Source of the DNA: Perna viridis
Taxonomy: Eukaryota
Direction: 5' to 3'
NCBI GenBank assembly: GCA_037379345.1
Contig: CM074517.1
Coordinates: 31,310,001 to 31,374,000, forward strand
Length of the DNA: 64,000 bases
The position numbers are program-made. Shown piece by piece: positions 18,001 to 21,000 of this stretch (its first letter is position 1; each line of letters opens with the position of its first letter).

Positions 18001-21000
18001 TATATGTCGGAGGCACTATTTTTTTTCCCAAAACCATTCTCTCAAAAATTTGAACACCAAATAACTTCATCTACATTTTCAGGTACAATGGACATTTTGT
18101 CAATCAGTAAAAATAATGAAATAATGCAGACTTTTAAATCTGAAATATTCATTACAAACCTTCCATTTCTACATCCTCCTCATTTTCTCCTTCCTCCTCC
18201 TCCAAATGGATATCCGGCTGTTCTACACGAATGATAGACTTATTCAACAACCTGAATGCTTCCTTTACATGCTTTGGTTGAACCTAAAAACACAAGTTTT
18301 TATCAGCAGTTGTTTTTTCTCCCTTAGCAACATAATTCATATATTAAGCATGCCAAACATACTTCAATTGAAAATGATAAGGTAACTTGAAAAAATTTAA
18401 AACCTACTTTTGAAAAGACTTGAGAAATAATAAACTTATTACTTAATATTATTGATAGGGCAGATAGATGTCTCAGTATTCACTAACATACAGTGGAAGA
18501 TGGGAAACAACTCAACTATTTCTAGGAGTAATTTATCCAATCTCTCTCATATTTGCGCAGTGATTAGTCACCATTGTTCATCTACCAGGGTCAAATCATG
18601 TTTGTAGCAAGTGTTTAAAAAGTTTACTTCAAAGAAGTGCAAGTGAAAAAAAATAATGGTCAACTTAAACACATAGACCACAATAAACTAACAGCCCCCT
18701 TTATTAAACACATAGACCACAATATTGATTAAACAAACGGCCCCCTTTATTAAACACATAGACCACAATATTGATTAAACAAATGGCCCCCTTTACAAGG
18801 AGTTGAGTACCACCTACTGGGTTTAAAACCTGTGTTAAGTAGCCTTCCAAAAGAGAGCAAGATCATGGTCACATAAAACAGGTCTTTATATAAAATATAA
18901 TTATTATATAATTTTACTACAAAGGGATATTTTGTCAGTCTTCTAAGACAATTTATTGCTGAATATAGGCGGTCACTAAGACGGTTTCACTGTAACTTTA
19001 ATCTTGATCTTTGACAATTAACAAGGTTTAAATTTACAAAATCTGAACAAAGCTTGATCAGAATCAAGTGAAGAAAGTTGATTCCAGAGTGCTAAAAAAA
19101 CAGAAGGATTAACAGAATCAAATGAAGAACAGTAACTCTACTATCACTTAGCAACTTCTCAAACAAAGGAAAAATTCACTTCATTACTTAACATTATGCA
19201 AAGGGCAAATATATGTCTCAGTATTCACTAACATACAGTGGAAGAAGGGAGACCACTCAACTATTTCTAGGAGTAATCTATCCAATCTCCCTCATATTTG
19301 CGCAGTGATTAGTCATCATTGATCATCAAAACAAGATATTAAAGTTCTCTTTTTCCTTAAATTTCAAAACTTTTTTTGACTGTTAATGGTAAATTTACAT
19401 CCCTAATATAGAGCTACAACAACTTAATTAACTACAGACACTTAGTGATCTCTTTGTTAAACTTGGAACTCAATATTTCAAAACATATCTGAATTTAAAG
19501 CCATAATAAACTATTTTAGTCAGACCAAAAAAAAAATCGAGACTTGATTACCTCATCTTGACAGTGTAACCTTGCCATGCCTTCTGACAATCTGATCATA
19601 CTTTCCAACTGTCGTACAGTGATCCTCCATGATGACTTGGCTGCCCCTGTACCGTCACGTTGACGTAGACGTTTATATTCTTCTATCATATACTCCTGGG
19701 CATCTTTACTGATCTGTGGTGATAACAATCCTGCTTGTAAGCATCGACTAAATTTCTAGTGTATGAAGTTTTTTTCTAATTATACCAAAAGAATTTGTAT
19801 TAAAACATACTGAACATTAAAAAAAATGTACTTGAGATTCTTTTTCAAATTTTTGACAAATAAAATGTCAGTAAAACAAAGCAAATCCATTTCAGTTAGA
19901 TAGAATCAGCTTTCCAAAATTAGTGAAACAAGTCTTGAACTTATACGTCCATCTCAAATCAATTTGTCACAATACAAATTATCGTACTTTATGCATTACC
20001 TTTGGTTTGAACTGTCTAGCAAACATAATGTATCTAGTTATATCTTCTACGGAGTAGACTCTCTCCACTGACTCGTCAACTCTACTGTGTAAGTCTACTA
20101 TTCTCCTGGCTATAGCATAATCCGTTACCTGCAATACAATAAGTAAAGCTTAAAAATATGTCAATTTGTACCCATAATCCATAACATTGAAATCTTTTGA
20201 TACGTCTCTGGAACTATTTAGCTAGCACCTGTTTTTTCACAAAAGATTGTTGTAAGAGAAAAATCAATTATGTCACAAGTTTGTTTTCATTATTTTATGG
20301 ACCAGGTGCACCAATAGGATAAGCGTCCTCTACTTTTCCAGAAACATCCGCCAAGTTGCTCATAAAAGTCAAGTCCGAGGTAGATGAAAGAGGAAAGGAA
20401 AACTATGACACAATGAACAAATCAGTTTTCATGGTACAGATGGATACATCATAATGATCCACCAGATCATTAATAAAACTCCTGTAGTGACAACTTCAAT
20501 CTTGTAGCAACATAGCCCTGTTCCAGAAACCTAACTGTAAGAAGTCTAGCACAGTACAAAAAGTCATGGCAAGCTCTGGCATGAGATGTGACTTGAAAAC
20601 TCCATACACGGGTACTGAAGGGATGTTGCCACAGATGTAAGGAGAGTTGACAATTCTGAATGAAGTCATCACGTTGGTCGAAAAGTTTGGTCAATAGTAA
20701 GAGTGGTGTCCCTTACCCTAGGTCTACATCCACAAGTGCTATTATTTATACCTTGTAGTTTATAACAGGCTTAACGTAAAGGAAAGTTTTAGTGATGCTA
20801 ATTCACTGTGGACACTGACATTATTGTCCAGTGAACAAGTCTAAATCTAAACAAATACTTTACTACTTTAAATGACTTTTCTTTCCAGTTAGCTCCTCCA
20901 AAACACTGTCAGATTTGCCATGAGCAACACATAAATTTAAAATGTTAGCTATAACCCAACAGGGCATCTGGTGCATGATGTCAGTTTTTAAAGTAGTTTC

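What the first reader, a model, noticed from the sequence alone, without database searches (positions are those of the whole stretch)
18464..19326. Two box C/D modules in one intron: candidate composite scaRNA or sno-lncRNA
Seen: both C/D-like copies lie sense-strand in the same MCM6 intron (18284-19551), with no coding exon between them since CQDE|VQPK is contiguous. They are ~630 nt apart, separated by a tandem repeat and a MITE remnant. The upstream copy has the perfect box C, and the downstream copy has a degenerate ATGGTGA but an intact box D. Established: animal intronic snoRNAs are normally one per intron because they are released by exonucleolytic trimming, and two in one intron can give an RNA capped by snoRNPs at both ends (sno-lncRNAs, tandem C/D scaRNAs). 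Inference: an ~860-nt stable intronic RNA could be produced, or one copy is decaying.
Basis: partly seen in the sequence, partly recalled or inferred. Interest (0 to 1): 0.65.

Follow-up and report, generated by a model that had tools for sequence, protein, structure and literature searches.

The report
Duplicated U4-guide box C/D RNA in intron
One intron of a mollusc MCM6 gene carries two copies of a small box C/D guide RNA that most likely directs methylation of the spliceosomal U4 RNA; this is an ordinary kind of gene, and nothing yet shows that the pair makes a long RNA.

Summary
The core observation holds. Two about 113-nt elements, 93.8% identical, lie 745 nt apart in the sense strand of one 1,268-nt MCM6 intron (19551..18284, minus strand). 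Ten of 10 MCM6 proteins align without a gap across the junction, so no known coding exon separates them. The upstream copy has AUGAUGA...CUGA and the downstream copy AUGGUGA...CUGA. The 46-nt tandem repeat between them is real. The "MITE remnant" was not confirmed.

New here: each copy carries an 11-nt antisense element between box C and a D'-like AUGA. It is perfectly complementary to nt 4-14 of U4 snRNA. The same element sits in the vertebrate mgU4-8/MBII-119 domain of scaRNA17 (Rfam RF00283), which guides U4 Cm8. The Rfam hits are sub-threshold (20.6 and 15.0 bits; gathering 40).

The core diverges less than the co-duplicated 3' flank (7/113 vs 11/48, p=0.005), and all 7 differences miss the guide and box blocks.

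Best reading: duplicated intronic scaRNA-type guides for U4. The upstream copy is intact; the downstream copy has a hit at a critical C-box position.

Caveats: weak terminal stems, a 1-nt register shift (G7 rather than C8), and no orthologue or RNA data. The sno-lncRNA or composite reading is untested and less likely. It is a new member of a known kind, of modest interest.

The parts
18284..19551 (-). MCM6 intron that hosts both copies (GT at 19551-19550, AG at 18285-18284; 1,268 nt)
   Evidence: Sequence read. One search prints the intron ends as GTAATCAA...GTTTTTAG. The flanking exon matches are 19725..19549 and 18283..18203, contiguous in 10 of 10 proteins.
19215..19327 (-). Upstream copy (U), conserved core of 113 nt. 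The likely RNA is about 105-115 nt.
   Evidence: 7 differences in 113 nt against the downstream copy. Similarity starts 8 nt before box C and continues past box D.
19313..19319 (-). Copy U box C, AUGAUGA (consensus)
19297..19307 (-). Copy U antisense element CACUGCGCAAA, complementary to U4 snRNA nt 4-14
   Evidence: only two exact matches in the window; aligned to the guide of RF00283; the + strand 11-mer lies at positions 4-14 of a published U4 forward primer that starts at U4 nt 1.
19292..19295 (-). Copy U D'-like box AUGA. It lies 2 nt after the antisense element, where RF00283 has CUGA after 1 nt.
   Evidence: Alignment (one inserted A).
19257..19260 (-). Copy U inner UUGA, aligned by Rfam to box D of RF00283. 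It could be a relic D box or part of C'.
19218..19221 (-). Copy U box D, CUGA. The 24 nt before it are identical in both copies (second, orphan antisense region).
18470..18582 (-). Downstream copy (D), conserved core of 113 nt
18568..18574 (-). Copy D variant box C, AUGGUGA (A to G at box position 4)
18552..18562 (-). Copy D antisense element CACUGCGCAAA, identical to copy U
18547..18550 (-). Copy D D'-like box AUGA
18473..18476 (-). Copy D box D, CUGA
18579..18586 (-). Copy D, 5' arm (GGUAGAUG) of an 8-bp external stem. The partner arm is at 18463-18470.
   Evidence: Minimum-free-energy and centroid folds. Duplex -12.1 kcal/mol; 3.5% of 1,000 shuffled flanks do as well.
18463..18470 (-). Copy D, 3' arm (CAUCUAUC) of the external stem, starting 2 nt after box D
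19167..19214 (-). Co-duplicated 3' flank of copy U. Its partner is 18423-18469. It is used as the neutral yardstick.
   Evidence: 11 differing columns of 48.
18684..18795 (.). 46-nt tandem repeat (2.4 units, 95% matches) in the spacer

Best explanation
The two elements are paralogous copies of an intron-encoded box C/D guide RNA of the scaRNA type, hosted in sense in one intron of a mollusc MCM6 gene.

Shown:
- Each copy has the layout box C, then 5 nt, then an 11-nt antisense element, then 2 nt, then a D'-like AUGA, then an internal region of about 70 nt, then box D.
- The antisense element is a perfect complement of U4 snRNA nt 4-14. It equals the guide of vertebrate mgU4-8/MBII-119.
- About 160 bp were duplicated within the intron.
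- The core is better conserved than the co-duplicated flank.

Inferred mechanism:
- After splicing and debranching, exonucleases trim the intron down to the Snu13/Nop56/Nop58/fibrillarin particle that assembles on the C/D kink-turn.
- The particle pairs with the free 5' end of U4. This is the stretch that later pairs with U6; the guide contains the same CUGCGCAA as U6.
- Fibrillarin then 2'-O-methylates C8, or G7 if the fifth-nucleotide rule is applied strictly to AUGA.

Status of the copies:
- The upstream copy is intact and is the likely producer.
- The downstream copy keeps both antisense blocks and box D, but has A to G at C-box position 4. I put it at about even odds that it is still functional rather than on its way out.

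The most likely products are one or two separate RNAs of about 105-115 nt, not a single RNA of about 850 nt.
For: 1. Duplication. A 161-nt alignment is 88.8% identical (E=4e-55), and there are only two copies in the 64 kb window.

2. Constraint.
- The core has 7 differences in 113 nt. The co-duplicated 3' flank has 11 in 48 (Fisher p=0.0046).
- A core that is neutral in both copies is rejected (p about 0.002).
- All 7 differences fall outside the 52 positions of guide 1 plus D' and guide 2 plus D (p=0.011, boundaries partly post hoc).
- The 36 nt before and including box D carry 1 difference (p about 0.001-0.005 at the flank rate). So the RNA extends to the distal CUGA.

3. Target.
- The + strand 11-mer TTTGCGCAGTG is at positions 4-14 of a published U4 forward primer (PMC4148344 primer list). 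It is also at positions 4-14 of the U4 sequence printed in bioRxiv 10.1101/2021.08.01.454689.
- The 10-mer antisense string recurs in papers on anti-U4 oligonucleotides (search listing only).

4. Family resemblance.
- The only Rfam family hit on both copies is RF00283, with C box and guide aligned, 10 of 10 guide letters identical.
- The 3' end of the RF00283 consensus equals the scaRNA17 reverse primer in PMC5612246.
- Table 1 of PMC7960923 assigns U4 Cm8 to scaRNA17 (MBII-119).

5. The box C to D' spacing (17 nt) is the same as in the RF00283 consensus (counted by eye).
Against: - Rfam scores are far below gathering: 20.6 and 15.0 bits against 40, with E=0.12 and 6 in a 1.45-kb search. Neither hit appears in the whole-window searches.
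- Terminal stems are weak. For copy U the flank duplex is -2.5 kcal/mol (long model) and -4.5 (short model), no better than shuffles. Only copy D has a notable external stem, matched by 3.5% of shuffles.
- Whole-element folds are not clearly better than shuffles. Copy U has z=-2.2 and copy D z=-0.9.
- No convincing C' box was found.
- Register: the G that pairs with C8 is the 6th, not the 5th, nucleotide upstream of AUGA. A strict reading therefore predicts G7, which the review table I saw does not list as methylated in human U4.
- The second antisense region has no target that I could find by eye in the U2, U4 and U6 sequences printed.
- The bare C...D motif is common.
- I had no orthologous sequences, no U4 gene of this species and no RNA data.
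Confidence: 0.58

Rival explanations
1. Sno-lncRNA or composite scaRNA. Both copies assemble snoRNPs, exonucleases stop at each, and the about 847-nt stretch from the upstream box C to the downstream box D accumulates as one RNA capped by snoRNPs at both ends.
For: - Two C/D modules lie in one intron, which is the stated prerequisite (PMC4234469).
- Both keep box D and both antisense blocks.
- The downstream copy has an 8-bp external stem that could help close its 3' end.
- In vertebrates the same U4-8 guide lives inside a tandem C/D-C/D scaRNA, scaRNA17.
Against: - In human H9 cells only 7 sno-lncRNAs were found although 48 snoRNAs pair in single introns.
- The downstream C box has lost the A at position 4. 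By recalled kink-turn biochemistry this A forms one of the two sheared G.A pairs, so the 3' cap would be the weak one.
- The spacer is 32% G+C, contains a 46-nt tandem repeat, has no GU/UG repeat and matches nothing else in the window.
- Both modules carry the same guide, unlike scaRNA2, 9 and 17.
- There are no RNA data.
Confidence: 0.12
2. Short form. The functional RNA is only the about 80-nt RF00283-like unit, from box C to the inner UUGA (19319..19257 and 18574..18512) closed by a 5-bp stem. The distal CUGA is not part of it.
For: - Rfam aligns the whole 83-position model to copy D, ending at UUGAG.
- GAUCA/UGGUC can pair in copy U, and GAACA/UGUUU in copy D with a 1-nt shift (read by eye). 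Three of the 7 differences lie in these arms.
Against: - The 36 nt up to and including the distal box D carry 1 difference, where about 8 are expected at the flank rate (p about 0.001-0.005). That stretch is therefore constrained too.
- The short-model flank duplexes are no better than shuffles.
- The short-form folds have z=-0.5 and +0.5.
- UUGA is a non-consensus box D.
Confidence: 0.12
3. No RNA gene. A recently duplicated piece of intron happens to contain C- and D-like motifs and a chance match to U4.
For: - The C...D motif alone is common: 12 in the window against 6.2 +/- 2.9 in shuffles.
- Rfam is sub-threshold.
- Terminal stems are weak.
- The flank yardstick is only 48 columns.
Against: - The exact 11-mer occurs only in the two copies. 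Even with up to 1 mismatch allowed, the shuffles average only 0.56 matches in the window.
- It sits between box C and a D'-like box, at the same box C to D' spacing as the vertebrate U4-8 guide.
- The core diverges less than the flank (p=0.005).
- The differences avoid the guide and box blocks (p=0.011).
Confidence: 0.15

Closest known systems
mgU4-8 / MBII-119, the 3' box C/D domain of vertebrate scaRNA17 (mgU12-22/U4-8). In Rfam it is RF00283, labelled 'SCARNA18'.
   Same: - Box C AUGAUGA.
- Identical 10-nt antisense core CACUGCGCAA, against the 5' end of U4.
- The same 17-nt spacing between box C and D'.
- A loosely similar 3' part: CUCCUAGAAAUAGUUGAG against uuCUgAGAACgGACUGAG.
Sources.
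   Different: - The score is half the gathering threshold.
- The guide is shifted 1 nt away from D', which is AUGA rather than CUGA.
- The position that matches the vertebrate box D reads UUGA.
- A conserved extension of about 40 nt ends in a second, consensus CUGA.
- The element is intronic in MCM6 and stands alone. It is not the 3' domain of an independently transcribed tandem scaRNA (the latter per PMC5612246).
- Homology as opposed to convergence on the same target is not established.
Sno-lncRNAs (Prader-Willi SNORD116 region, RPL13A region)
   Same: Two box C/D modules lie in one spliced intron, which is the prerequisite (PMC4234469).
   Different: - No RNA evidence.
- One module has a damaged box C.
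- These RNAs are described in primates and mouse in the paper I read. I saw no invertebrate case, and I ran no search for one.
Tandem C/D-C/D scaRNAs (scaRNA2, scaRNA9, scaRNA17)
   Same: Two C/D domains lie on one precursor and target spliceosomal snRNA. ScaRNA9 is also intron-hosted (PMC5612246).
   Different: - There, each domain has a different guide, and the domains are part of one compact RNA. ScaRNA17 is numbered to at least nt 412.
- Here there are two near-identical modules 643 nt apart with a repetitive spacer.
Multi-copy intronic snoRNA clusters of invertebrates (Drosophila)
   Same: Paralogous guide RNAs sit in one host gene as a result of local duplication.
   Different: Known to me only from a cited title (Huang et al. 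2004, in the reference list of PMC5932544) and from recall. The processing route in molluscs is unknown.

Membership tests
Box C/D snoRNA/scaRNA | Box C (RUGAUGA) near the 5' end | tested here: met
   Copy U has AUGAUGA at 19319..19313. Copy D reads AUGGUGA at 18574..18568, so copy D does not meet it.
Box C/D snoRNA/scaRNA | Box D (CUGA) near the 3' end | tested here: met
   Both copies have it, at 19221..19218 and 18476..18473.
Box C/D snoRNA/scaRNA | Short terminal stem that brings boxes C and D together | tested here: inconclusive
   Copy U flank duplex is -2.5 kcal/mol, and 89% of shuffles do as well. Copy D has an 8-bp external stem at -12.1 kcal/mol, matched by 3.5% of shuffles.
Box C/D snoRNA/scaRNA | Internal D' and C' boxes | tested here: inconclusive
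   A D'-like AUGA is present in both copies. No convincing C' was found; the candidates are UAGAAA and UUGAGU (by eye).
Box C/D snoRNA/scaRNA | Antisense element of at least 10 nt ending just upstream of D or D', with the modified nucleotide paired to the 5th position | tested here: inconclusive
   There is an 11-nt perfect complement to U4 nt 4-14. Position 5 upstream of AUGA pairs with G7, and position 6 with C8, the known site. The U4 of this species was not available.
Box C/D snoRNA/scaRNA | Stable RNA bound by fibrillarin, Nop56, Nop58 and Snu13 | not testable with these tools
   No expression or binding data.
Rfam RF00283 (mgU4-8/MBII-119; Rfam label SCARNA18) | Covariance-model score at or above the gathering threshold (40 bits) | tested here: not met
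   20.6 bits for copy U and 15.0 bits for copy D. No match at gathering.
Rfam RF00283 (mgU4-8/MBII-119; Rfam label SCARNA18) | U4 antisense core CACUGCGCAA after box C | tested here: met
   10 of 10 letters identical in both copies.
Sno-lncRNA | Two snoRNA genes within one spliced intron | tested here: met
   Both copies lie in intron 19551..18284, and 10 of 10 homologues have no exon there. An unannotated alternative exon cannot be excluded.
Sno-lncRNA | Both ends competent for snoRNP assembly | tested here: inconclusive
   The downstream box C carries A4 to G. The consequence is inferred from recalled kink-turn biochemistry.
Sno-lncRNA | Accumulation of the sequence between the snoRNAs in poly(A)-minus RNA | not testable with these tools
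   No RNA data.
Tandem C/D-C/D scaRNA | Two domains with different guide specificities in one RNA | tested here: not met
   Both modules carry identical antisense blocks.
Tandem C/D-C/D scaRNA | GU/UG-repeat Cajal-body element (recalled from Marnef et al. 2014; paper not read here) | tested here: not met
   The intron has no run of 3 or more GU or UG units.

The most novel reading that the evidence does not exclude
The intron yields an RNA of about 850 nt capped at both ends by U4-guide box C/D snoRNPs. That would be an invertebrate sno-lncRNA. It would also be a 'proto-composite' scaRNA, caught just after the intra-intronic duplication that could later diverge into a two-guide tandem scaRNA. 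Vertebrate scaRNA17, which carries this very U4-8 guide as one of its two domains, would be the mature example.
Probability: 0.1. Interest if true: 0.6.

Novelty: new member of a known kind. Interest (0 to 1): 0.33.

Why it matters
If the reading is right, the guide for 2'-O-methylation of the U4 5' end exists in a mollusc with the same 10-nt antisense core as in vertebrates. It would extend the reach of a spliceosomal-RNA modification guide that Rfam's own threshold misses here. It would also give a concrete case of snoRNA gene birth by local duplication within an intron.

The 1-nt shift of the guide relative to D' makes a testable prediction: Gm7 rather than Cm8. That bears on how strict the fifth-nucleotide ruler is.

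The long-RNA idea would matter more, but it has no support yet.

Tried and rejected
- Rfam at gathering thresholds on the whole window gave 0 matches. Rfam in E-value mode on the whole window gave 3 weak unrelated matches and no snoRNA.
- MITE remnant: inverted-repeat search of the spacer and a sensitive blastn of the intron against the window found nothing that supports it.
- Retroposition of the snoRNA as the origin of the second copy: by eye I saw no A-rich tail or target-site duplication. A DNA-level duplication is assumed.
- Terminal-stem tests for the long and short models gave mostly no signal.
- Compensatory change in the helix GGGAGA/UCUCCC of copy U: in copy D it acquires one A.C mismatch and one G.U pair, so the changes are not compensatory (by eye).
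- Target of the second antisense block: compared by eye with the U2, U4 and U6 sequences printed, with no contiguous match. rRNA, U1, U5, U12 and this species' own snRNAs were not available.
- Literature by sequence returned U4 primers and anti-U4 oligonucleotides but no snoRNA list.
- Literature by words: 'scaRNA' with 'mollus' gave 28 papers. The 10 listed are genome notes and reviews, seen as a listing only. 'MCM6' with 'snoRNA' and 'host gene' gave 15 papers, and none of the 10 listed titles concerns an MCM6-hosted snoRNA.
Conservation in other molluscs therefore stayed unchecked.
- The spliced MCM6 model was only ever searched exon by exon. The joined protein was not built or searched.
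- Supplementary files were not consulted. The additional files of PMC4234469 (snoRNA pairs) and Figure S1 of PMC1687206 might refine the comparison.
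Full report
**Host gene and organism.**
- The window is 33.6% G+C and has no N.
- A 146-aa exon (22914..22477, minus strand) searched on its own finds MCM6 proteins. The best named hits are molluscs, including Haliotis, Tegillarca, Sinanodonta and Argopecten.
- Ten named MCM6 proteins were run exon-wise by tblastn against the window. They give up to 16 matches from 32680 down to 14265 on the minus strand. 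Mean identity is 82-86% for the seven mollusc proteins other than Plakobranchus (73%), 77% for a brachiopod and 69% for Xenopus.
- The window is therefore a mollusc MCM6 locus and not human.
- The spliced model was only searched exon by exon. The joined protein was never built or searched.

**The observation.**
- The intron runs from 19551 (GT) to 18284 (AG) and is 1,268 nt long. It lies between an exon ending ...HCQDE and one beginning VQPK....
- In 10 of 10 proteins the alignment is contiguous across this junction, and no match lies inside the intron.
- Two direct copies lie 745 nt apart, start to start. A 161-nt alignment is 88.8% identical, E=4e-55, and the window holds no third copy.
- Read on the gene's strand, the upstream copy has AUGAUGA (19319..19313) and CUGA (19221..19218). 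The downstream copy has AUGGUGA (18574..18568) and CUGA (18476..18473).
- The gap from the upstream D box to the downstream C box is 643 nt, and the whole span is 847 nt.
- The 46-nt tandem repeat at 18684-18795 is real.
- The 'MITE remnant' is not supported. The best inverted repeat in the spacer is 14 nt at 79%, and the spacer matches nothing else in the window.
- A bare C...D motif is not evidence by itself. There are 12 such pairs in the window against 6.2 +/- 2.9 in 50 shuffles.

**What the copies carry.**
- Rfam gives nothing at gathering thresholds.
- In E-value mode on 18200-19650, the only family hit on both copies is RF00283. Copy U scores 20.6 bits (E=0.12) and copy D 15.0 bits (E=6), against a gathering score of 40.
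- The aligned letters are box C and the string CACUGCGCAA, which matches the consensus 10 of 10.
- RF00283 carries the Rfam label 'SCARNA18'. Its consensus 3' end equals the scaRNA17 reverse primer printed in PMC5612246 (passages). So the model represents the mgU4-8 domain of scaRNA17.
- Table 1 of the review PMC7960923 (passage) assigns U4 Cm8 to 'scaRNA17 (MBII-119)'.
- The name is confusing. In PMC1687206 (passages), SCARNA18 is U109, an H/ACA scaRNA.
- The + strand reading of the element, TTTGCGCAGTG, occupies positions 4-14 of a published U4 forward primer that starts at nt 1 (PMC4148344, primer list). It occupies the same positions in the U4 sequence printed in a preprint.
- The exact 11-mer occurs only in the two copies. 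Even with up to one mismatch allowed, shuffles average only 0.56 matches in the window.
- The same U4 stretch pairs with U6. The guide shares CUGCGCAA with the U6 sequence printed (by eye). A guide of this kind must therefore act on U4 that is not annealed to U6 (inference).

**Constraint.**
- Similarity begins 8 nt before box C and continues about 48 nt past box D. Beyond that it is at background: 11 of 50 and 14 of 50 identical positions.
- The 113-nt core has 7 differences. The co-duplicated 3' flank has 11 differing columns of 48 (Fisher p=0.0046).
- The flank rate was treated as uncertain in two tests. A core that is neutral in both copies is rejected (p about 0.002). A core that is neutral in one copy only is not rejected (p about 0.09).
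- The 7 differences lie at positions -2, 4, 30, 42, 66, 69 and 74, counted from the first base of box C. All fall outside guide 1 plus D' (8-28) and guide 2 plus D (75-105). The chance of that is p=0.011, with block limits partly chosen after seeing the data.
- The 36 nt up to and including the distal box D carry one difference (p about 0.001-0.005 at the flank rate). This argues that the RNA reaches the distal CUGA, giving a product of about 105-115 nt. It argues against an 80-nt form that ends at the inner UUGA, which is where Rfam places box D.

**Weak points.**
- Terminal stems are poor. For copy U the flank duplexes are no better than shuffles.
- Copy D has an 8-bp external stem (18586..18579 with 18470..18463), at -12.1 kcal/mol. 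That is matched by 3.5% of shuffled flanks.
- Whole-element folds give z=-2.2 for copy U and z=-0.9 for copy D.
- I found no convincing C' box.
- The antisense element sits one nucleotide further from D' than in the RF00283 consensus, while the box C to D' distance is unchanged. By the fifth-nucleotide rule (recalled), AUGA would then select G7 rather than C8. The passage I saw lists Am1, Gm2, Cm8 and Am65 for human U4.
- The U4 of this species could not be examined.
- The second antisense block has no target among the U2, U4 and U6 sequences visible (by eye).

**The downstream copy.**
- Its box C has G in place of A at position 4. From recalled kink-turn biochemistry, this A forms one of the tandem sheared G.A pairs needed for Snu13 binding.
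- The helix GGGAGA/UCUCCC of copy U becomes GAGAGA/UUUCCC, with one mismatch and one wobble pair (by eye).
- Against decay: both antisense blocks, D' and D are untouched, and the copy has acquired the external stem.
- I leave its status at about even odds.

**The long-RNA idea.**
- Two snoRNAs in one intron are the stated prerequisite for a sno-lncRNA, but they are not sufficient. In human H9 cells 48 snoRNAs pair within single introns and seven sno-lncRNAs were detected (PMC4234469, passages).
- Known tandem C/D scaRNAs carry different guides in their two domains, and scaRNA9 is intron-hosted (PMC5612246).
- Here the modules are near-identical. The spacer is 643 nt, has 32% G+C, is repetitive and lacks GU/UG repeats. 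The module that would protect the 3' end is the damaged one.
- Both copies also lie far from the 3' splice site, at 933 and 189 nt. The vertebrate optimum of roughly 70-80 nt is recalled, not checked, and may not apply to molluscs.
- Nothing available here can test RNA accumulation. I put this reading at about 0.1.

**Comparison and novelty.**
- The element works like, and may be homologous to, the mgU4-8/MBII-119 guide.
- It fails the Rfam membership threshold, so I do not file it as a member of RF00283. I file it as a new box C/D guide of the same target class.
- Word searches found no paper on an MCM6-hosted snoRNA (10 of 15 listed). They found no specific study of molluscan scaRNAs (10 of 28 listed, titles and abstract starts only).
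- Orthologues could not be sought because no eukaryotic genome collection was available.
- Verdict: a real and fairly ordinary feature, namely a locally duplicated intronic U4-guide box C/D RNA. The sno-lncRNA proposal is untested and unlikely.

Noticed in passing
window 17320-17823, 33218-33702, 46655-47168: A dispersed repeat of about 500 bp in three copies (82-88% identical). One copy lies in the MCM6 intron next to the one studied.
   Followed up: no
window 14561-15722, 21362-22157, 24339-25252: Further repeat families are shared among MCM6 introns. For example, 14561-14909 matches 21362-21722 at 87%, and there are internally tandem units around 14913-15632 and 24339-25135.
   Followed up: no
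window 19311-19328 and 19620-19637: An 18-nt stretch is 83% complementary between the 5' end of the upstream copy (box C region) and the upstream MCM6 exon. It could pair in the pre-mRNA, or it could be chance.
   Followed up: no
window 51229-51348: Sub-threshold matches to two plant or other miRNA precursor families: MIR7993 at 30.4 bits and mir-5365 at 27.6 bits, both far below gathering. Probably a hairpin-forming repeat.
   Followed up: no
window 19283-19325 and 18507-18580 (Rfam RF00283 hits): Rfam labels RF00283 'SCARNA18', yet its consensus is the box C/D mgU4-8 domain of scaRNA17. In PMC1687206, SCARNA18 is U109, an H/ACA scaRNA. This is a naming trap for automatic annotation.
   Followed up: partly
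window 19297-19307 and 18552-18562: The U4 antisense element contains the same CUGCGCAA as U6 snRNA, as printed. The guide therefore mimics the U6 strand of the U4/U6 duplex. PMC5612246 speculates that such a fragment could also act as a sink for U6-directed snoRNAs.
   Followed up: partly
window 19328-19321 and 18583-18576: A second C-box-like GAUGA lies 8 nt upstream of box C in both copies (UUGAUGA and UAGAUGA). In copy D it lies inside the 5' arm of the external stem.
   Followed up: partly
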